Shown: positions 36,098 to 47,404 of the stretch, piece by piece
Layout: every line of letters begins with the position of its first letter
Numbering within the stretch: position 1 is the first letter of the stretch
Source of the DNA: the human T2T-CHM13v2.0 reference genome, Homo sapiens
Assembly (NCBI RefSeq): GCF_009914755.1
Contig: NC_060927.1
Length of the DNA: 64,000 nt
Reading direction: 5' to 3' (one strand)
Notes under the pieces: model-generated
The model's database searches: none
The model's input: the letters and a program-made list of their open reading frames with translations, nothing else
Told to the model about the DNA's origin: nothing
Made by a program: the position numbers and the translations under genes

Positions 36098-37134
36098 CCA
36101 TGAGTTTGGCTTTGGATGTAACAAGATGGAGGTGTTCATGAGTTCACAAGTGGAAAAAACAAGAAAGAAGTTGAGTGTTTAAGACTGCTGTTTGAAGGAG
36201 AAGTCTAGCCTCAAGACAAAAGTTCAGGACTCATAAGCTGAGAAATGGCACTGAAAATTATGCAAAGGGATGAGCTCAGCTAGCAAACAAGTCCAGAGAG
36301 AGCAGAAAGTCCAGAGAGAGCAGCACTGGGCCATGCACCTGGCCTAATGCCACCCCACTCCTCCCAATCCCTGTGTTATGCTGGAGAGGGTTCAGCCTCT
36401 GGTGAGTTTCACCAAACCCCCACATCTTATTCTTCTGAGACCGTCTTTAAAATCCCCTCTTTTATACTTAGTGAAATGGGATTCTCTTTTTCCCATCCAG
36501 CTTAAGCAAAAACTTTTGACTATGAAAGGAATGAGGATGCATTTAATATCTGCTCTGCATGGCTAATTCCATCAAAGATTTCTCATTATTCATGCCTGGC
36601 AGTCTCATTTTCTTCTTTCGCCTCTCAGAGCATAGTCATAGCCTTAATTAGTGACCTTTTCACCCTTCTAACACCAGTGATTTTCCCCCATCTCAGTTCT
36701 CAGGAAGTTCTGTTCACAGAATTATCTCCTGAATCCTCACCTGGGGATAGAAATTGTTCTCTGTGGCCGTGTCTCCCCCTCTAATTCTCATCAAAAAACA
36801 GTGATCTCTGTGCATCAAATATGAAACTCAAGCTTAACAGATCATGCTTCTGGCTTCTCTCTCTCTCTGGCCTGTGGGTTAACAGGTTTGCAGCCTTTGC
36901 AGAGAAGACACCAAATTCTCAAGAGGCCAGAGTTTCCAAGAGTGCTGGTCACTCTTGCTCTCTTTCTCCTGCTCAAAATTCAGCACTAGAGAGTGTTACA
37001 CCATTGCACCTGCAGAGGAGTTCATCTGACTCTAGGGACTACAGAGGAGAGAGACAGACAAACTAACAGACATTCAGAAAAGGGCTACCACAATGGGGAA
37101 GAAAATGAAAGTCAAACCAAATAAGCAATGGTCA

Positions 37135-37708
<574 letters not shown>

Positions 37709-37744
37709 TTATGCCCATTTGCTACATATTGTCTATGGCTGCTG

Positions 37745-38139
37745 GATTAGGCTGTTCTCTCATGCTATAAAGAAATACCTGAGATTGGGTAATGTATAAA
37801 GAAAAGAGGTTTAATTGGCTCACAGTTTTGTAGACTGTACAGGGAAGCATAACACTGACATCAGCTGAGCTTCTGTGGAGGCCTCAGGAAACTTACAATC
37901 ATGGCAGAAGGTGAAGTGGGAGCAAGAGAGTGAGGAGGGAGGTGCTACACACTCGTAAACAACCAGATCTTGCAAGAACTCACTTACTATTGCAAGGACA
38001 GGACCAAAGGGATGATGGTAAATCATTCATGAGAAATCCACCCCCATGATCCAATCTCTTCCCACCAGGCCCCACCTCTAAAACTGGGTATTACATTGCA
38101 ACATGAGATTTGGGCGGGGACACATATTCAACCTATATC
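37745..38139 (-). mobile_element. MST-type MaLR solo LTR inside a MER58-like element (about 37625-38252)
   Basis: GCTATAAAGAAATACCTGAGA...GAAAAGAGGTTTAATTGGCTCACAG...CAACCTATATCA; GCTG(C/G) flanks. Confidence 0.8.
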
Positions 38140-39000
38140 AGCTGCTTTCATGCTATGGGTGGCAGAGTTGAGTAACTACTACAAGAGACTGTATGGCCCA
38201 AGAATTGTAAAATATTTACTATCTGATGCTTTCAAGAAAGTTTGCAAAGCCTGCTCTTGAAAAGGAATGGAAGGAAGAGGAGAGGAGGAAGGCAGGAAGG
38301 AGCAGAGAGGGACACGGGGCTGTATTCAAACATCTGTTGTTAAGAAAGAGAAATTCAATTTATTTGGCATGGCCCAAGTTATCAAACTAGGAGCACTCCA
38401 TTGAAGTTTCAGAACAAACACTGTGCTGAATATAAGGATGACCCCATCTGTAATGCCTAACCTTGTTTTTACTAACTTTGTTGGTAGACTTTCCTTTTCT
38501 TTTAATCACTTAGCCTTGTTTCTACCTGAATTGACTTTCTTTTAGCTAAGAGAGCTAGATAGACTTTGTCTTGGCTTTTTCACTGGCAGCCCCTTCCTCA
38601 AGGACTTAACTTGTGCAAGCTGACTCTTAGCACCTCTAAGAATGCAATTAAGTGATAAGATACTGTGGGACGAGCAATATCCGCAGTTACTAGGAATTTG
38701 TCTGATTGATAACACCCAAAGCCCCGCGTCTATCACTTTGTAATAGTCTTAAAGCCCTTAGACCTAGAATTGTTTACTTTCCTGTAACAATTTATCCTTT
38801 TAACTTCTTTGCCTACTTCTGTAAAATTGTTTTAACTAGACCCCTTTCCCCTTTCTAAACTAAAGTATAAATGAAAATCTAGCCCCTTCTTCAGGGCCGA
38901 GAGAACTTTAAGCATTAGCTGTATCTTGGCCACCGGCTAAATAGACTCATAATTCGTCTCAAAGTGTGGCATTTTCTCTAACTCGCTCAAGTACAACATT

Positions 39001-39018
39001 TGGAGGCCCCAGTGAGAA
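39001..39018 (+). promoter_or_regulatory. Primer binding site complementary to tRNA-Thr
   Basis: TGGAGGCCCCAGTGAGA two bases after the 5' LTR; complements a tRNA-Thr 3' end (TCTCGCTGGGGCCTCCA) with one mismatch. Confidence 0.85.
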
Positions 39019-40804
39019 ACGCCACCAGGCGAGAGCCAGGCTTGCTCCGGCCCCCCCCGGAAGAACGGCCGGATTGTAGTGGGGGCGCCACTTGAAAAAA
39101 AATTTTCAGGTCCCTGAAAGGTGACCGTCTTCCAGAGGAAAGCGGATCGACTACCGTGTGGGTGCCCACAAAAATTCCACCTCTGAGTCCTCAACTTCTG
39201 ACCCTGAGGTCAGGTAGGTCAGATTTGACTTCAGTTCTAGTAAGAGGGAAGCGGCCCTTATGAGGGCATCCCTCTTTTGACTCTGCCCATTTCTCTAGGA
39301 CGCTAGAAGGCAGAGCCCTGGTTTTCTGTTAGGCACCTCTGTGTCTCTGTCTAGGAGGGAAGTGGCCCTGATAGGGGCCCTCCCTTGACTCAGTCCACAT
39401 CCCAGGATGCTGGAGGACTGAGTCCTGGTTTCTGGCAGACCGGTCACTCTCTCTCTCGCTCTCTTTTTCTATCTCTCATCTTTCTCTTGTTCCAGTTTCT
39501 TGAAGAATCTCCAAGAAAGAAAAAAAAACTGTTTTAAACTCTGTGTGAATAATGAATGAATGAGGGAGGACAAGGGCTTGCGCTTGTCCTCCAGTTTGTA
39601 GCTCCACGGCGAAAGCTACGGAGTTCAAGTGGGCCCTCACCTGCGATTCCGTGGCGACCTCTTAAGGCTTAAGGACAGCATCAGGCATAGCTCGATCTGA
39701 GCCGGAAGTTTATACCGGGCTGCCAATGCTAAGAGGAGCCCAAGTCCCCTCAGGGGGAGCGGCCAGGCAGGCATCTGACTGATCCCATCACAGGACCCCC
39801 TCCCCTTGTCTGTCTAAAAAAAAAAAAAAAAGGAAGAAACTTTCATAACTGTTTACATGCCCTAAAGTCAATTGTTTATGTTGATTGTTCTGTTCAGTGT
39901 CTACTGTCTTGTTAGTAGTTGTCAAAGTTTTGCATGTCAAGACGTTGATATTGCCCAAGACATCTAAGTAAAAACTTCTTCAAAGTCCTTAGTGCTGATT
40001 TTTTTGTCACAGGAGGTTAAATTTCTCATCAATCGTTTAGGCTGGCCACCACAGTCCTGTCTTTTCTGCCAGAAGCAAGTCAAGTGTTGTTACAAGAACA
40101 AGAGTGAAAAACATTTGCCTGATTAAGATTTCTAGCACCATGAAAGTTGTAAGTATTTAGATTGTCACACCCTACATCCAAGTGATTAGACCTCCTCTAA
40201 TCTAAACCAGTAGTAAGTTCAAAACAGCCACCCTGCAGATTTCCTTGCTCACCTCTTTTGTCATTCTGTAACTTTTCCTGTGCCCTGAAATAGAACGCAC
40301 ACCCGTACTACTTTACTTCATCGAGATTCTTACTCTGTTCCTCTGTGGCTACTCTCCCATCTTAAAAATGATCTGAGTAGTCCTTTACGCGTCGTTCCTG
40401 CCCCCTACCCTGCACATCTCATTTTCCGGTGTGACAGCAAGTTCAGCATCTCCATGACTTTGCTCTGCTCTCACTCCTTAAACCCTTAAAAGAAAAAGCT
40501 AAGCCTAAGCTATTTGCCTTTAAGTCATAAAGACACCAGAAGTATTTAAAGTACAGATCTAGAAGAAGAAGAACGCCTAGATCAAACTGACCCAGAAGAT
40601 CTCAGGCTGGCTCTAGTCCTCCTCCCTCAATCTTAAAGCTACAGTAATGTAGCAAGTAGTATGAGCTGTTGTAGTTTTTCTGCTCTTTCTAGTCATGTTG
40701 ATTCTGTTCTTTCAATACTCCAGTCCCCCAAGAAATAAGTTTCTCTGTCCATGTTAGGTTTAATATTTATGCTCAAATCTTATTAAATTGCCTTCAAAAA
40801 AAAA

Positions 40805-42150
40805 AAAAGAAACACTTCCTCCCAGACTTGTAAAAGTTAAAGCCCTCTCCAATGTGTGCTGCAGAATTTTCCTCTCAGTTTCTCAGAGGATTATAAAGTC
40901 CGCCTTGAAACAGGCAAGCTCCAGACACTCTGCAAAATAAAATGGCCAAAGTTTAAAGTCCAGTGGCCCCCTGAAGGGTCATTGAACCTCACAATTGTTC
41001 AAGCTGTGTGGCCGGTTGTTACTAAAACTCCTAGCCACCCTGATCAGTTTCCCTACATTGATCAATAGCTAAGTTTAGTCAGGAGCCCCCTCCATGGCTC
41101 CGCTCATGCGCCATTCATAATTCTACCTCCAAGGTCCTCCTAAGCCATACCGCCTTTTCATCTCGACCCTCAGCCGGTTTGGCTTCTCCTGTACTGCCTC
41201 CCTCTGAAGAAGGGGGGAGTCTCCCTCACCCAGTCCCACCGCCTTACAACCAGCCTGCTCCCTTAAAGTTATCCCATGTCTCCTCGACGACGTCCCCTGT
41301 AGACTCGCCACCCATTGCCTCTCAATCGCGACCGTGACAGGAAGAAGTAGCCCCTCTACTACCACTGAGAGAGGCACAAGTCCCTCCAGGTGACGAGCGC
41401 TCAGCCCCCTTCTTAGTTTATGTCCCTTTTTCTACTTCTGACTTATATAATTAGAAAACCCATAATCCTCCCTTCTCTGAAAAGCCCCAGGCTTTGACCT
41501 CTCTGATAGAGTCCGTACTCCGGACTCACCCGCCCACCTAAGATGATTGCCAACAGCTCCTTTTAACCCTTTTCACCTCTGAAAAGAAAGAACGTATCCA
41601 AAAAGAAGCCAAAAAGTACTTCCTCACATCAGCCAATGGACTGGAAGGAGAAGCTAGAGACCTCCTTGAGGAGGTCTTTCCCTCTACCCGGCCTAACTGG
41701 GACCCAAATTCCTCAAGTAGAAAGAGAGCTTTAGACGATTTTCACCGGTATCTCCTCGCAAGTATTAAAAGAGCCACTCAGAAACCCATAAACTTGTCTA
41801 AGACCACCGAAGTTGTCCAAAGGCCCGATAAGTCACCAAGAACGTTTTAGAGCGCCTCCAGGAGGCTTATCGGATTTACACCCCTTTTGACCCGGCAGCT
41901 CCCAAAAATAGCCGTGCTCTTAATTTAGCATTTGTGGCTCAGGCAGCCCCGGATATTAAAAAAGAAACTCCAAAAACTAGAAAGATTTGCTAGAATAAAT
42001 ATCAGTCAGCTTTTAGAAATAGCCCAAAAAGCTTTTGACCATCAAAAGGTTAAAAAACAAAAACAAGCAACACAGGCAGCTGAAAAGGCCACTGATAAAG
42101 CATTCAAAAGACAAACAAAAATATTAGTGGCGGCTATCCAAGAAGTACAG
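40805..42150 (+). pseudogene. gag: HERV-T gag remnant (MA through CA; NC missing)
   Basis: WPPEGSLNLTIVQAVW...HPDQFPYIDQ*, PPPY late-domain motif near 41236, YVPFSTSDLYN*KTHNPPFSEKPQ, PT*DDCQQLLLTLFTSE. Confidence 0.9.
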
Positions 42151-42167
42151 AATGAAATATCCCGTTA

Positions 42168-44240
42168 ATTTAGCATTAACTGAAGCCCCTGCTTTAGCCC
42201 TCCCTAATATCTCCATAAAAACCAAGGAGTTGCTAAAGAGGTGCTTACTCAGGCTTTAAGACCCTAAAGACGCCCAGTGGCCTATTTATCTAAGAGGCTA
42301 GATCCTGTGGCCTCTAGATGGCCAAGTTGTCTGCGAGCCGTAGAGGCTACAGCAAGCCTAGTCCAAGAAGATGATAAGTTAACTCTAAGCCAAAATTTAA
42401 CCCTTACAGCTCCTCATGCTGTAAAGACCTTACTACGAAGTGCTTCTGGCAAATAGATGTCAAATGCTCACATCTTGCAGTGTCAGTTAGATCAGCCTCG
42501 TTTGACTTTCTCTCCCACAAAGTGTTTCAATCCAGCCACACTACTTCCTGACCCAGACTGCACTATTCCTGCTCATGACTGTCAAGAACTGTTAGAAACT
42601 ATCCAAACTGGCCCATCTGATCTTCAAGATGTGCCCCTAGAAAAGGCAGATGCCGCCGTGTTCACAGACAGTAGCAGCTTCCTCAAGCAGGAAGTATGAA
42701 AAGCCAGTGCAGCTGTTACCATGGAGACAGATGTGTTGTAAGCTCACGCTTTACCAGCGAACACCTCAGCACAAAAGGCTGAATTGATCACCCTCACTCA
42801 GGCTCTCCGATAAAGTAGAATAAACGTATTAACATTTACAGTGACAGCAAGTATGCCTTTGCTACTGTGCATGTACGTAAAGCCATCTACCAGGAAGGCA
42901 GGCTACTCACCTCAGCAGGTAGCTGTGATCCACTGCAAAGGACATCAAAAAGAAAATACGGCCGTTGCCCATAGTAACCAGAAAGCTGATTCAGCAGCTC
43001 AGGTCGCAGCGCAACTTCAGTCATGCCTCTAAACTTGCTGCCCATAGTCTCCTTTCCACAGCCAGATCTGCCTGACAATCCCGTATACTCAACAACAACA
43101 AAAAAAAACTGGCTTCAGATCTCAGAGCCAATAAAAATCAGGAAAGTTAGTAGATTCTTCCTGACTCTAGAATCTTCATATCCTGAACTCTTAAAGAAAC
43201 TTTAATCAGTCACCTACAGTCTACCACCCACTTAAAAAGAGCAAAGCTACCTCAGCTCCTCAGGAGCCATTTTAAGATCCCCCATCTTCAAAGCCTAACA
43301 GATTAAGCAGCTCTCCAGTGCACAACCTGCGCCCAAGTAAATGCCAAACAAAGTCCTAAACCCAGCCTAGGCCACTGTCTCTGAAAAAACTCGCCAAGAA
43401 AAAAGTAAGAAATTGACTTTACAGAAGTAAAACCACACCGGGCTAAGTACAAATACCTTCTAGTACTAGTAGACACCTTCTCCAGATAGACTAAGGCATT
43501 TGCTACTGAAAACGAAACTACCAACACAGTAGTTAAGTTTTTACGCAATGAAATCAACCCCCAATATACGCTGCCTGCTGCTATAAAGTCTGATAATAGA
43601 GCAGCCTTTACCTCGCCTATAGCTCAGTCAGTCAGTAAGGCGTTAAACATTCAATAGAAGCTCCATTGTGCCTATCAACCCCAGAGCTCCAGGCAAGTAG
43701 AACGCATGAACCACACCCTAAAAAACACTCTTACAAAATTAATCTTAAAAACCAGTGTAAATTAAGTAAGTCTCCTTCCTTTAGCCCTACTTAAAGTAAG
43801 GTGCACCCCTTACTAGGCTAAGTTCTCACCCTTTGAAATCATGTATAAGAAGGCGCTGCCTATCTTGCCTAAGCTAAGAGATACCAAATTAGCAGAATTA
43901 TCACAAACTAATTTATTACAGTACCTGTAGTCTCTCCAACAGGTACAAGAGATCATCCTGCCACTTGCTCGAGGAGCCCATCCCAATCCAATTCCTGACC
44001 AGACAAAGTCCTGCCATTCATTCCAGCCAGGAGACCTAGTGTTTGTTAAAAAGTTCCAAGAAGAAAGACTCACTCCTGCTTAGAAAAGACCTCACACCGT
44101 CATCCTCACGACTCCAACTGCTCTGAAAGTAGACAGCCTTCCTGCTTAGATTCATCACTCCCGCATCAAAAAGGCCAACAGAGCCCAGCTAAAAACATAA
44201 GTCCCCAGGCCTAAGTCAGGCCCCTTAAAACTGCACCTAA
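42168..44240 (+). pseudogene. pol: HERV-T pol remnant (RT connection, RNase H, integrase; PR and RT polymerase domain deleted)
   Basis: [90 protein letters not shown]. Confidence 0.9.
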
Positions 44241-44244
44241 CTCA

Positions 44245-45290
44245 GGTGAAGCCATTAGATTCATTCTTTTTATCTACCTCACTTATTTGTTTTTGCCAGT
44301 TACATCCTCCGTGCCTTCCTACTCCTTTCTCCTCACCTCTTTCACAACAGGACGTGTATTTGCAAACACCACTTGGAAGGCCAGTACCTCCAAGGAAGTC
44401 TCCTTTGCAGTTGATTTATTTGTACTGTTCCCAAAGCCAGCCCATACCCATGAAAAGCAACACAATCTGTCAGTCCCAGGAGCAGGAAGTGTCGACCTTG
44501 CAGCAAGATTCAGACACTCCAAGAGCCAAACTAAATGTAGGAGCTCCAAAAGTGCAGAAAAAAGACTCCAAAATATTGACTTTTACCTCTGTCCTAGAAA
44601 TCACCCTGACACTAGCTGTCAAGATGCTTATCAGTTTTTCTGCCCTGATTAGACATGTGTAACTTTAGCCACCTACTCTAAAAGATCAACCAGATCTTCA
44701 ACTGTTTCCATAAGTCGTGCTTCTCATCCTAAATTATGTACTAGAAAAAATTGTAATCCTCTTACTGTAACTGTCCATGACCTTAATTCAACTCAATAGT
44801 ATCATGGCATGGCATGTCATGAAGATTAAGATTTTATATCCCAGGATTTAATGTTAAGTCTATGTTCACCATCCAAAAAAACCCTAGTCTCATAAAGCCC
44901 ACCCAAGCCAATCAGATCTTTAACTGATCTAAGTAACCCTATGTTCCAGAAACACCCTGACAAAGTTGATTTGACTGTTCCTCCACCTTTCTTAGTCATA
45001 AAAGATACACTCCAAAAAGTGCAAGAAAATCTAGACAAGCGCCAACAAGAACAAGAAAATAACATCCCCTAGTATCAAAGCATGTTCAACTAGAACCCAT
45101 AGCTAACCACTCTAATTACTAAGTTAGCCAGACCCCCTCCCCGTCCTACTAATAAGTCTAATATTTGGGCCTTGTATATTAAATTAGTTTCTTAATTTTG
45201 TAAAACAACGCATAGCTTCTGTCAAACTTATGTATCTTAAGACTCAATATAACCCCCTTTTTATAACTGAAGAATCAACGATTTGATTCC
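44245..45290 (+). pseudogene. env: HERV-T env remnant (SU N-terminal part joined to TM C-terminus)
   Basis: DFYLCPRNHPDTSCQDAYQFFCPD; then VIKDTLQKVQENLDKRQ...P*YQSMFN*NP*LTTLI...FGPCILN; furin site, fusion peptide and ISD not seen. Confidence 0.85.
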
Positions 45291-46106
45291 CCAAAAACAC
45301 AAATGAGGAATGTAATGCCCAACCTTGTTTTTACTAACTCTGTCTTTAGACTCTCCCTTTCTTTTAATGACCTAGCCTTGTTTCCACCTGAATTGACTCT
45401 CCCTTAGCTAAGAGAGCCAGACAGACTCCATCTTGGCTCTTTCACTGGCAGCCCCTTCCTCAAGGACTTAACTTGTGCAAGCTGACTCCCAGCACATCGA
45501 AGAATGCAATTAACTGATAAGATACTGTGGTGAGCAATATCCACAGTTCCCAGGAATTCATCTGGTTGATAACGCCCAAAGCCCCGAGTCTATCACCTTA
45601 TAATAGTCTTAAAGGCCCTAGACCTAGAACTGTTTACTTTCCTGTAACAATTTATCCTTTTAACTTTTTTGCCTACTTTACTTATGTAAAATTGTTTTAA
45701 CTAGACCCCCCTCCCCTTTCTAAACCAAAGTATAAAAGAAAATCTTAGCCCCTTCTTCGAAGCCGAGAGAACTTTCAACGTTAGCCGTTTCTTAGCCGCC
45801 GGCTAAATAAACAGACTCTTAATTCATCTCAAAGTGTAGCGTGTTCTCTAGCTCGCTCAAGAACAACACATCTAGCAGGCACGTAATCCACTCTAAAATG
45901 CTGTCCTGGGGTAGTAAAGATGATGTTGCTGGAAATACCCTTAAATGGCATGTGGATGAGTTCCCCCAGAGGCATACATGTTGAGCTACTTTGCTGATGA
46001 AGGGTACAAGTTGAAGGGGTTTTGTAAGGCAGAGTGAGGTTCCTCAGAAGGCTGTTGCTACAGAAAGCCAGGAGGAGAAATTACATGGCCAGATAGAGTG
46101 GCATGA

Positions 46107-46430
<324 letters not shown>

Positions 46431-47404
46431 TGAGGGTCTTCAGCAAAGATGGAAGTTTTGGTACCTTGCAGTTTAATCTCTTCATTTATGTCCTCCTGAA
46501 ATCTTCAGTAATAGCACACTTTGTCAATGCTTCTGGGGTCGTACTTAGGGGGACTTAAAGGAGATGTGATGTGGCAGCCTTTGACTCAAGGGAGTATCAT
46601 ACTAGCTCAAAGAGATCTGGGTACATGCCAGTTGAACCAACTCTTCTGAGGATGTGATAGATCCTGGGAGGCCACTGTGATCCCGCCAACCTTGAGGCCA
46701 GATGAGTCTTTGAAAAACATGGTTTGGCTTAACACCAGCACTTAGTCTAACACCCACCATGAATCTTGCTGAAGTGAAGCTATACAAATACCTTTTCAAA
46801 AGATTTTTTTTCATTTCAGATCCTTCGTAGAAATTCCTAAGGCTCAATGCTGTGTGGAAGTTTCTAAGAAAGAAAATAGTTTCCCATCTTTGGGATTCCC
46901 CTGAGATGGTCCAATCTGCAAAAAGTTCATTGCCATTTCCATCAAGGACACTGAGAACAACAGTCTTATCCGGATTGGATCCTGGGAATTGAGAAGCTTC
47001 AACAAGTGGGAAATGCACCCTCCACAGGTTCACACCCTTGTGGGCTGTTTCAGTTACCTATTGCACCCTAAAATTAGAAACTTTAAACCACCACAAGTCA
47101 TTATTGCTCATGACCCTGTGAGTTGCATGTGGACTTCCTGTCTAGTTTAATCTGGGCTCATTTGTGTGGCTACCTGCAGCTGGAGGGCCAGGTGGGCGGA
47201 ACATCCAGGACAGCCTCACGTGTGTGCCTGGCAGTTGGTGCTGCCTGTCAGCCGGGGAACCTTGTTTTCCTCCATGTGGCCCCTCGCCCTCCAGAGCCCC
47301 TCTCCAAATGGCCCTTTAAGCAGGATAGCCAAGGCTTGATTGGTGCCAGCATCCAAGAGGGCAAAAATATGGAAACTACGAGAGGGTTCTCAAGGCCTAA
47401 GACT

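What the first reader, a model, noticed from the sequence alone, without database searches (positions are those of the whole stretch)
38449..38880. Plus-strand C>T hypermutation confined to the 5' LTR U3 of the HERV-T provirus
Aligning the two LTRs by hand gives roughly two dozen U3 positions with T in the 5' LTR and C in the 3' LTR, against only two or three the other way. Most are non-CpG and in CC or TC context (GCCC>GCCT, ACCT>ACTT, TCCA>TCTA, AGCCAG>AGCTAG, CTCCCAG>CTCTTAG, CACCT>CACTT, AACCA>AACTA). Neutral decay would be symmetric. It is established for HIV-1 that APOBEC3G also edits plus-strand 5' U3 while it is transiently single-stranded during reverse transcription. Inference: this is a germline fossil of that second-strand editing, and LTR-LTR divergence would overestimate the provirus age.
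Basis: partly seen in the sequence, partly recalled or inferred. Interest (0 to 1): 0.82.

Follow-up and report, generated by a model that had tools for sequence, protein, structure and literature searches.

The report
APOBEC footprint on provirus 5' LTR
An ancient retrovirus copy in human chromosome 3 was heavily mutated by a host antiviral enzyme while it was being copied into DNA, and it preserves a rarely seen second footprint of that enzyme on the opposite DNA strand at one end, which makes the insertion look much older than it is.

Summary
The 5' LTR (38449-38998) reads T where the 3' LTR (45311-45868) reads C at 26 sites, plus one just past the LTR end, against 3 the other way.

Seven paralogous 5' LTRs, ten paralogous 3' LTRs and twelve independent LTR copies polarise this. 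About 25 are derived C>T in the 5' LTR lineage, fixed before the locus was segmentally duplicated.

- **Context:** CC 16/48, TC 6/37, AC 2/32, GC 0/23; CCA 7/7.
- **Gradient:** hits fall from 10/28 C sites in the first 100 nt to 0/13 at the U5 end.
- **Boundary:** an empty-site paralog on chr16 shows the cluster stops at the LTR edge (15/38 against 1/25 C sites).
- **Provirus body:** a classic G>A hypermutant (125 G>A against 12 A>G; GG 78/199).

Two independent elements, a chr19 provirus and a chr3 solo LTR, carry the same 5'-terminal cluster.

Best reading (0.8): APOBEC3G-like editing of the plus strand before integration. LTR dating drops from about 28 to about 17.5 My.

Caveats: the pattern is a gradient, not a U3 box. 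The HIV precedent could not be read here. The published catalogue files the element as HERV-T2.

The parts
38445..38448 (+). Left copy of the 4-bp target-site duplication (CATC)
   Evidence: Read. The chr16 empty-site paralog L039 carries a single copy, seen as a 4-base overlap of the two flank alignments.
38449..38998 (+). 5' LTR (550 bp, TG...CA ends), carrying about 25 derived plus-strand C>T
38458..38861 (+). Span of the old (pre-duplication) C>T sites of the 5' LTR, densest in 38458-38577
   Evidence: 22 of the 27 pairwise T/C sites are T in the paralogous 5' LTRs (6 to 7 of 7 per site), C in 10 of 10 paralogous 3' LTRs at 18 of the 22 sites (6 to 9 of 10 at the other four) and C in 9 or more of 12 independent copies. 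Gradient and context.
38866..38871 (+). TATAAA box; marks the approximate end of U3 (transcription start inferred about 25-30 nt downstream)
   Evidence: Read. The U3/R boundary is inferred from motif position, not tested.
39001..39018 (+). Primer-binding site (TGG... 18 nt, two bases after the LTR). No fixed C>T here
   Evidence: Alignment columns printed. The tRNA identity was not tested.
38999..45310 (+). Provirus body, G>A hypermutated in GG and GA context
   Evidence: Changes shared by at least 6 of 7 paralogous copies against 3 unanimous independent proviruses: G>A 125, A>G 12, C>T 16, T>C 17, transversions 12. GG 78/199, GA 37/258, GY 10/464. Non-CpG: GG 61/159, GA 21/181, GC 0/159, GT 4/182, p = 1.7e-22.
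45311..45868 (+). 3' LTR (558 bp), keeps the older C at the edited sites. Has three lineage-specific G>A in R (45760, 45778, 45794) and the AATAAA signal at 45806-45811
45869..45872 (+). Right copy of the target-site duplication (CATC)
   Evidence: Read.

Best explanation
This is a HERV-T provirus whose reverse transcript was edited by an APOBEC3G-like cytidine deaminase before integration.

**Shown:**
- The minus strand was deaminated along the whole genome, giving plus-strand G>A in GG and GA context.
- The plus strand of the 5' LTR was also deaminated, at CC (especially CCA) and some TC sites. Intensity is highest at the very 5' end of U3 and decays towards U5.
- The 3' LTR and both host flanks escaped.

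**Inferred mechanism:** The 5' LTR plus strand is plus-strand strong-stop DNA. After the second strand transfer, the minus strand is completed by copying it from the PBS end towards the U3 5' end. The U3 5' end is therefore the last part of the plus strand to become double-stranded and has the longest single-stranded exposure. APOBEC3G's reported bias towards the 5' side of single-stranded DNA would add to this. Uracils were copied into A on the new minus strand, fixing C>T in the 5' LTR only.

The mirror-image event, exposure of the displaced 5' end of the minus strand, would give G>A only in R/U5 of the 3' LTR. Three such sites are seen here, and eight of eleven G>A lie there in the related solo LTR.

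The edited provirus integrated (TSD CATC) and was then copied at least 15 times by segmental duplication, which froze the pattern.
For: 1. **Polarity and timing.** At 25 sites the 5'-LTR group (at least 6 of 8 copies) has T, while the 3'-LTR group (at least 9 of 11) and the independents (at least 9 of 12) have C. Other 5'-lineage changes number only 3: 1 G>A, 1 G>C and 1 indel column at the LTR end. That is 24 of 140 C sites against 1 of 70 G sites, p = 4.6e-4.
2. **Enzyme-like context.** CC 16/48, TC 6/37, AC 2/32, GC 0/23. CCA 7/7, CCT 6/17, CCC 3/20, CCG 0/4.
3. **Gradient from the U3 5' end.** 10/28, 6/30, 5/24, 2/20, 1/25, 0/13; Mann-Whitney p = 3e-4. The result is the same with three other reference copies.
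4. **Sharp stop at the LTR edge.** The empty-site paralog is chr16 L039. In the last 130 bp of flank, 1 of 25 C sites is T in the provirus-bearing copies, against 15 of 38 in LTR 1-130 (p = 0.0023). For 300 bp: 2/51 against 22/85 (p = 9e-4).
5. **The same molecule was edited on the minus strand.**. Internal C>T is not raised: 16 against 17 T>C; CC>CT 5/420.
6. **Recurrence.** The chr19:23.3M provirus L068 has T5'/C3' 13 against 3, with 8 of 31 C sites hit in the first 100 nt against 4 of 123 elsewhere (p = 3e-4). Its own 3' LTR keeps C, and its body shows GG 15/114 against GY 11/352 (p = 0.005). The solo LTR L023 has 9/31 against 5/123 (p = 2e-4), plus 11 G>A and 0 A>G. Five hot spots (LTR positions 10, 30, 47, 75, 93) are shared by all three, and each element has private sites. 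The two proviruses without the cluster (L061, L062) lack significant GG/GA enrichment (p = 1 and 0.055).
7. **Precedent (recalled, not read).** Yu et al. 2004, Nat Struct Mol Biol 11:435, reported C>T in the 5' U3 and PBS of vif-deleted HIV-1 and a CCCA preference.
Against: - No fixed C>T in the PBS, although it contains a CCCCA run.
[quoted passage not shown] The single-stranded exposure is therefore inferred, not shown.
- The plus-strand editing rate at the U3 end (15/38 C sites) is as high as the minus-strand GG rate (78/199). I recall plus-strand C>T being described as rare for HIV-1.
- One of the three 3'-LTR-specific G>A (45778) is in GC context.
- Polarisation rests on human paralogs and other human copies only; no ape orthologs were available.
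- The LTR-edge test exists only for this locus, not for L068 or L023.
- Two further proviruses gave nothing clear: chr6:87.68M has T5'/C3' 4 against 10; chr3:167.12M has 9 against 2 but without 5' clustering.
Confidence: 0.8

Rival explanations
1. Post-integration, strand-coordinated APOBEC cluster ('kataegis'-type germline event) that happened to hit the 5' LTR in the short interval between integration and the first segmental duplication.
For: Clusters of CC-context C>T attributed to APOBEC3G are described in hominid genome evolution (PMC4864454, abstract and passages). All sites predate duplication, so the timing alone does not exclude it.
Against: - The cluster ends at the LTR edge: 1/25 against 15/38 C sites.
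- Its maximum sits at that edge and decays inward. On textbook end-resection polarity (my inference, not from any call), a break at that edge would expose the minus strand there, not the plus strand.
- The same LTR end is hit in two unlinked elements.
- It coincides with genome-wide minus-strand editing of the same provirus.
Confidence: 0.07
2. The 5' LTR (or its first 100-400 nt) was acquired from a different, T-rich LTR variant. The routes would be gene conversion, recombination, or transfer of strong-stop DNA made on a co-packaged variant genome.
For: Three elements share five T alleles. Intermolecular plus-strand transfer has been proposed for HIV-1 proviruses with structurally unequal LTRs (PMC9278108, passages).
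Against: - The differences are 25 C>T against 3 of any other kind. Real subfamily differences would be of all types.
- The T set was found on no 3' LTR: 0 of 11 paralogous 3' LTRs, and none of the 3' LTRs of L061, L062 or L068.
- Among the 12 independent LTRs, only the solo LTR L023 carries it.
- A search seeded with the T-rich LTR itself found only its paralogs, L023 and the L068 5' LTR (40 of 407 candidates scored).
- Each element has private edited sites.
- U3 of a 5' LTR is not transmitted to progeny (textbook retroviral replication).
Confidence: 0.05
3. Deamination after integration that is specific to the transcriptionally active 5' LTR promoter, with single-stranded DNA arising from transcription or R-loops.
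For: Only the 5' LTR of a provirus is normally the active promoter, which could explain the asymmetry between identical LTRs (general knowledge).
Against: - Density is highest about 440 nt upstream of the TATA box and falls to 1/25 and 0/13 towards and beyond the inferred start site. That is the opposite of transcription-coupled targeting.
- A solo LTR shows the same pattern together with G>A at its other end.
- The pattern coincides with virion-type G>A hypermutation.
Confidence: 0.04
4. Chance or ordinary neutral decay, including CpG decay.
For: None beyond the fact that C>T is a common substitution.
Against: - 27 against 3, p = 8e-6.
- 1 of 24 sites is CpG.
- No excess in flanks or body.
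Confidence: 0.01

Closest known systems
APOBEC3G-induced plus-strand C>T in the 5' U3 and PBS of vif-deleted HIV-1 (Yu et al. 2004, Nat Struct Mol Biol 11:435; recalled, paper not held)
   Same: Plus-strand C>T limited to the 5' LTR side, CC/CCCA-type context, and co-occurrence with minus-strand G>A editing. Both are explained by transient single-strandedness during reverse transcription.
   Different: - This is a fixed germline fossil in a gammaretrovirus-like ERV, not cell-culture HIV-1.
- Editing is intense (15/38 C sites in the first 130 nt) and graded. I recall it being described as rare in HIV-1.
- No PBS site is edited here. The HIV PBS site has been reattributed to alternative tRNA priming (PMC4549124, passages).
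G>A hypermutated endogenous retroviruses: primate gammaretroviruses CERV/RhERV (PMC2564838, passages); HERV-K(HML-2) (titles seen in a reference list); the hypermutated founder of HERV-T2 (PMC5388530, passages)
   Same: The body of this provirus shows the same GG>AG / GA>AA strand-specific signature fixed in the germline.
   Different: Those studies score G>A and use plus-strand C>T as the negative control. PMC2564838 does not contain the word LTR (0 occurrences). The 5'-LTR C>T footprint and the LTR asymmetry are not described in the passages I read.
Genome-wide screens of edited LTR retrotransposons (Knisbacher and Levanon 2016, PMC4866542, passages)
   Same: Same idea of recognising editing by clusters of one transition type between related copies.
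   Different: C>T clusters (12,857 sites against 137,954 G>A) are treated there as a control that 'mocks' opposite-strand editing. The present case shows that at least some such clusters are real editing with a defined position.
Clustered CC-context mutations in hominid genomes attributed to APOBEC3G (Pinto et al. 2016, PMC4864454, abstract and passages)
   Same: Strand-coordinated C>T in CC context, inherited through the germline.
   Different: Those are taken to arise on chromosomal DNA. This cluster respects the viral DNA end and comes with virion-type hypermutation, so it arose before integration.
Structurally asymmetric LTRs in HIV-1 proviruses (Joseph et al. 2022, PMC9278108, abstract and passages)
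   Same: The two LTRs of one provirus differ from the moment of integration because of events in reverse transcription.
   Different: There the differences are deletions ascribed to template switching. Here they are point substitutions ascribed to deamination.

Membership tests
APOBEC3-hypermutated provirus | Large excess of plus-strand G>A over A>G relative to related copies | tested here: met
   125 against 12, binomial p = 7e-25.
APOBEC3-hypermutated provirus | G>A concentrated at GG and/or GA, not GC/GT, after removing CpG | tested here: met
   GG 61/159, GA 21/181, GC 0/159, GT 4/182; p = 1.7e-22.
APOBEC3-hypermutated provirus | Strand specificity in the body (no matching C>T excess) | tested here: met
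   Internal C>T 16 against T>C 17; CC>CT 5/420.
APOBEC3-hypermutated provirus | Editing confined to viral DNA (host flanks unaffected) | tested here: met
   Upstream flank C>T 5/467 and T>C 3/529. Downstream flank G>A 0 to 1 per 300 bp. Outgroup is the chr16 empty site.
Plus-strand (strong-stop DNA) editing of the 5' LTR, as reported for HIV-1 | C>T on the plus strand present in the 5' LTR and absent from the 3' LTR of the same provirus | tested here: met
   25 derived C>T in the 5' lineage, with the 3' lineage keeping C.
Plus-strand (strong-stop DNA) editing of the 5' LTR, as reported for HIV-1 | Deaminase dinucleotide preference (CC, CCCA-type) | tested here: met
   CC 16/48 against non-CC 8/92, p = 6e-4. 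CCA 7/7.
Plus-strand (strong-stop DNA) editing of the 5' LTR, as reported for HIV-1 | C>T also in the primer-binding site | tested here: not met
   No C>T shared by the paralogs in 39001-39018. This feature is itself disputed for HIV-1.
Plus-strand (strong-stop DNA) editing of the 5' LTR, as reported for HIV-1 | Occurs during reverse transcription in a virion that carries the deaminase | not testable with these tools
   Inferred from the LTR-edge boundary and from co-occurring minus-strand hypermutation. Needs an infection experiment.
Chromosomal APOBEC mutation cluster (kataegis-type) | Cluster position independent of mobile-element boundaries | tested here: not met
   15/38 against 1/25 across the LTR edge. 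The same LTR end is hit at three loci.
   No repeat library is held. The HERV-T catalogue lists a 7.4-kb plus-strand chr3 provirus matching this one, and its paralogs, as HERV-T2. Its text pairs 'HERV-T3 and HERV-T2' with 'LTR6A and LTR6B' (PMC5388530, passages and supplementary file 1 part 7). Proviruses that catalogue lists as T3 match this one at only 72-77%.

The most novel reading that the evidence does not exclude
Deamination of the last-copied 5' ends of both DNA strands is a regular and strong feature of APOBEC3G-restricted reverse transcription in this virus group. It leaves mirror-image footprints: C>T at the U3 end of the 5' LTR, and G>A at the U5 end of the 3' LTR.

If so:
- The footprints map the order and duration of the final strand-displacement steps of reverse transcription in vivo.
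- Part of the C>T clusters used as negative controls in genome-wide ERV editing screens is genuine editing.
- LTR-divergence ages of hypermutated proviruses are systematically too old. Here the factor is about 1.6.
Probability: 0.45. Interest if true: 0.7.

Novelty: new variant of a known kind. Interest (0 to 1): 0.62.

Why it matters
- **Evidence for a debated step.** It gives natural, germline-fixed evidence that the plus strand of a retroviral 5' LTR is single-stranded long enough to be heavily deaminated. Reviews often deny this, and the HIV-1 precedent rests on cell-culture data I could only recall.
- **Kinetic record.** The gradient, together with the opposite G>A footprint at the 3' LTR end, is a fossil read-out of the last steps of reverse transcription.
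- **Dating.** The two LTRs of a hypermutated provirus are not identical at integration, so LTR-LTR dating is biased. Here it moves from 28.3 to 17.5 My at 2.2e-9 per site per year.
- **Screens.** Using C>T clusters as a noise control discards real signal.
- **Locus history.** The locus brackets one integration between two rounds of segmental duplication: an empty site on chr16 and at least 15 filled copies.

Tried and rejected
- **HIV precedent.** Yu et al. 2004, Mbisa et al. 2007 and Das et al. 2005 are not held. I rely on recall and on citing papers.
- **Literature for a 5'-LTR C>T footprint in ERVs.**
  - Searches that ran.
  - Result: (six terms, at least five required) returned 0 papers. 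None of the passages read describes the footprint. This is absence within the open-access library only.
- **Wider LTR survey.** I took three short stretches instead. Prevalence is therefore known only for 6 independent two-LTR proviruses and 12 other LTR copies.
- **Two extra proviruses.**
  - chr6:87.68M shows no asymmetry (4 against 10).
  - chr3:167.12M shows T5'/C3' 9 against 2 without 5' clustering. Two of the nine fall in flank columns. It is left unexplained.
- **PBS editing.** Looked for, not found.
- **Published age for this provirus.** The catalogue gives 'ND' for HERV-T2 proviruses, so no published date could be compared. Its hypermutation results by locus are in a figure supplement that I could not see.
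- **RNA editing of the genomic RNA.** Rejected because it would appear in both LTRs (textbook replication scheme).
- **Non-enzymatic deamination.** Rejected because of the GC 0/23 against CC 16/48 contrast.

Full report
**What is there.** A repeat search finds a pair of direct repeats 6.86 kb apart. Reading the ends gives these boundaries:
- 5' LTR 38449-38998 and 3' LTR 45311-45868, both TG...CA.
- The 4-bp duplication CATC on each side (38445-38448, 45869-45872).
- A TGG... primer-binding site two bases after the 5' LTR.

The provirus is 7.4 kb. The HERV-T catalogue of Blanco-Melo et al. 2017 (PMC5388530, supplementary file 1 part 7) lists a 7,396-bp plus-strand chr3 provirus, and several of the paralogs found below, as HERV-T2 with age 'ND'. 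The text pairs 'HERV-T3 and HERV-T2' with 'LTR6A and LTR6B'. No repeat library is held here to settle it.

**The observation.** In the pairwise alignment:
- The 5' LTR has T where the 3' LTR has C at 27 columns. One of these, 38999/45869, lies just outside the LTR.
- The reverse case occurs at 3 columns. G/A is 10 and A/G is 7.
- 27 against 3 has binomial p = 8.4e-6, while 10 against 7 is unremarkable.

So the asymmetry is real and specific to one transition on one strand.

**Polarity and timing.** The assembly holds many copies (40 of 407 candidates scored, 30 fetched). Flank and internal matches sort them into 7 paralogous 5' LTRs, 10 paralogous 3' LTRs (segmental duplicates of this very provirus on chr3, 4, 8, 11 and 12) and 12 independent LTRs.
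- At 22 of the 27 T/C columns, the paralogous 5' LTRs read T (6 or 7 of the 7 copies per site). All ten paralogous 3' LTRs read C at 18 of the 22 sites and 6 to 9 of ten at the other four. Nine or more of the twelve independents read C.
- The remaining five are one private T>C of the window's 3' LTR, three later changes of this copy, and the column outside the LTR.
- With thresholds of at least 6/8, 9/11 and 9/12, the 5'-LTR lineage has 25 C>T, 1 G>A, 1 G>C and 1 indel column. The 3'-LTR lineage has 3 G>A and one 4-column indel.

The changes are thus derived C>T in the 5' LTR. They were acquired before the first duplication, in an interval in which almost nothing else happened to that LTR.

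**Signature.** Taking a natural 3' LTR copy for neighbouring bases:
- 24 of 140 older C sites changed, against 1 of 70 G sites (p = 4.6e-4).
- By the preceding base: CC 16/48, TC 6/37, AC 2/32, GC 0/23 (CC against the rest, p = 6e-4).
- All seven CCA sites in the LTR were hit. CC followed by C was hit 3/20.
- Only one site is CpG.
- The hit rate falls steadily from the LTR's 5' end: 10/28, 6/30, 5/24, 2/20, 1/25, 0/13 per 100 nt (Mann-Whitney p = 3e-4). Three other reference copies give the same picture.

All sites do lie upstream of the TATA box at 38866. However, R plus U5 is only about 100 nt and sits at the tail of the gradient. 'Confined to U3' is therefore not distinguishable from 'graded from the 5' end'.

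**The boundary.** A search with the upstream flank turned up chr16:5185985-5189582 (L039). Its sequence runs from the upstream flank straight into the downstream flank, with a 4-base overlap. It is an empty site duplicated before the integration. With it as outgroup:
- Only 1 of 25 C sites in the last 130 bp of flank is T in the nine provirus-bearing copies. The figures are 2 of 51 in the last 300 bp and 5 of 467 over 2.1 kb, with 3 of 529 T>C.
- The first 130 nt of the LTR have 15 of 38 (p = 0.0023), and the first 300 nt have 22 of 85 against 2 of 51 (p = 9e-4).
- The downstream flank has no G>A excess.

The cluster begins at the end of the viral DNA.

**The rest of the provirus.** I aligned the window's provirus with six full-length paralogs and three independent proviruses and counted changes shared by at least 6 of 7 paralogous copies against unanimous outgroups.
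- The body has 125 G>A, 12 A>G, 16 C>T, 17 T>C and 12 transversions.
- The G>A sites are followed by G in 78 cases, A in 37, T in 8 and C in 2.
- Per available site: GG 78/199, GA 37/258, GY 10/464.
- Without CpG and with all three outgroups required: GG 61/159, GA 21/181, GC 0/159, GT 4/182, p = 1.7e-22.
- GG editing is lowest next to the PBS (10/58) and about 35 to 63% further on.
- Plus-strand CC>CT in the body is 5/420.

This is a textbook APOBEC3 hypermutant with a mainly APOBEC3G-like (GG) preference. The plus-strand editing is limited to the 5' LTR.

**Recurrence.**
- *Independent proviruses.*
  - L068 (chr19:23.3M) has T5'/C3' 13 against 3, with 8 of the 13 in the first 95 columns.
  - L061 and L062 have 7/4 and 6/6.
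- *L068, polarised against 14 background LTRs.*
  - Its 5' LTR has C>T at 8 of 31 C sites in the first 100 nt and 4 of 123 elsewhere (p = 3e-4).
  - Its own 3' LTR keeps C at these sites.
  - Its body is moderately GG-enriched: 15/114 against GY 11/352, p = 0.005.
  - L061 is not enriched (p = 1) and L062 is marginal (p = 0.055).
- *L023 (chr3:186241661-186242214).*
  - It is a solo LTR: there is no internal sequence within 1.5 kb, and the flanking ACAT/ACGT fits a decayed duplication.
  - It has C>T at 9 of 31 against 5 of 123 (p = 2e-4), and 11 G>A with 0 A>G.
  - Eight of the 11 G>A lie at LTR positions 428-550, the R/U5 end.
  - A solo LTR is a 5'/3' recombinant, so this looks like a 5' LTR head joined to a 3' LTR tail.
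- *Sharing between the three elements.* Five hot spots (positions 10, 30, 47, 75, 93) are shared by all three, and each has private sites. This fits repeated action of one enzyme on one sequence rather than inheritance.
- *Two further proviruses gave no support.* chr6:87.68M has 4 against 10. chr3:167.12M has 9 against 2 without 5' clustering.

**Mechanism.** Shown: deamination-type changes on both strands of one reverse transcript, plus-strand changes only in the 5' LTR and graded from its outer end, and none in host DNA. Inferred:
- The 5' LTR plus strand is plus-strand strong-stop DNA. The minus strand is finished by copying it from PBS to U3, so the outer end of U3 stays single-stranded longest.
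- The enzyme's reported 3'-to-5' bias (title seen in reference lists) would reinforce this.
- APOBEC3G is reported to impair plus-strand transfer (title of Mbisa et al. 2007 seen), which would lengthen the exposure.
- The displaced 5' end of the minus strand would be exposed in the same way. This would explain the three G>A found only in R of the 3' LTR (45760, 45778, 45794; two in GG context) and the L023 tail.

**Points against the mechanism.**
- The canonical displacement scheme leaves no free plus strand. [quoted passage not shown]
- The PBS is not edited.
- The plus-strand rate is unexpectedly as high as the minus-strand rate.

**Rivals.**
- A chromosomal APOBEC cluster of the kind described by Pinto et al. 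(PMC4864454) is contradicted by the LTR-edge boundary, the direction of the gradient, the recurrence at the same LTR end and the link with virion-type hypermutation.
- A borrowed T-rich LTR is contradicted by the pure C>T spectrum and by the absence of the T set from every 3' LTR examined.
- Promoter-linked deamination is contradicted by a maximum about 440 nt upstream of the TATA box.
- Genomic-RNA editing would mark both LTRs.

**Known and new.**
- G>A hypermutated ERVs are well known, including in HERV-T. The HERV-T2 founder is described as a hypermutated T1 element, and 49 sequences were run through Hypermut. The per-locus results are in a figure supplement I could not see.
- Plus-strand C>T in the HIV-1 5' U3 and PBS was, as I recall, reported by Yu et al. 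2004. That paper is not held, and its PBS part was contested.
- ERV studies that I could read treat plus-strand C>T as a control (PMC2564838; PMC4866542).
- My searches found no description of a 5'-LTR-specific C>T footprint in an endogenous retrovirus, within an open-access library only.

I therefore rate it a new variant of a known kind.

**Consequence for dating.** The raw LTR-LTR distance is K2P 0.1245, or 28.3 My at 2.2e-9 per site per year (the rate used in PMC5388530). Dropping the 28 columns attributed to reverse transcription gives 0.0770, or 17.5 My.

**Limits.**
- Only human copies were available.
- Body outgroups are three proviruses at 84-86% identity.
- The flank test exists for this locus alone.
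- The survey covers 6 two-LTR proviruses and 12 other LTRs, chosen by similarity searches that score only 40 candidates each.
- The enzyme identity and the single-stranded intermediate are inferred.

Noticed in passing
L039 = G000 chr16:5185985-5189582 (reverse strand), matching window 36358-38448 and 45869-47379: This is an empty-site paralog of the integration locus, at about 93-94% identity and with a single CATC. The duplicon had therefore already been copied once before the provirus arrived, and the filled site was then copied many more times.
   Followed up: yes
G000 chr8 (four or five copies), chr7:7.11M, chr4:4.03M and chr4:9.04M; window equivalent about 38089-39046: Eight paralogs match the upstream flank only up to window position about 38088, and the provirus body only from about 39047. 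They share a deletion of roughly 1 kb that removed the whole 5' LTR.
   Followed up: partly
L038 = G000 chr8:6899434-6903030: A rearranged paralog. It has the flank plus the first 155 nt of the 5' LTR, then window-equivalent 38924-39164, then an inverted copy of 38745-39848. Its LTR fragment carries the T alleles.
   Followed up: partly
window 38942-38943 against 45809-45812: The 5' LTR of this copy has lost the AATAAA polyadenylation signal through a 4-bp deletion. The chr3:75.56M paralog lacks 2 of the 4 bases, and the other paralogs keep them.
   Followed up: no
window 38472, 38713, 38717 and 45339 (3' LTR column matching 38477): At three old C>T sites the window's 5' LTR reads C while 6 or 7 of the other paralogous 5' LTRs read T. 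At one site (38477 = 45339) the window's 3' LTR reads T like the 5' group. Back-mutation or short gene conversion between the two LTRs of this copy is possible.
   Followed up: no
G000 chr3:167116700-167125000 (L072, L073): Another HERV-T provirus with T5'/C3' 9 against 2 and G5'/A3' 9 against A5'/G3' 6. The sites are scattered rather than clustered at the 5' end, and its LTRs differ from this family in their first 90 nt or so. Unexplained.
   Followed up: partly
window 39001-39018 and paralogs: The fourth C of the PBS run GGCCCC varies among the paralogs (C, G or T) while the three independent proviruses keep C. This looks like a hypervariable site, possibly CpG-related in some copies.
   Followed up: no
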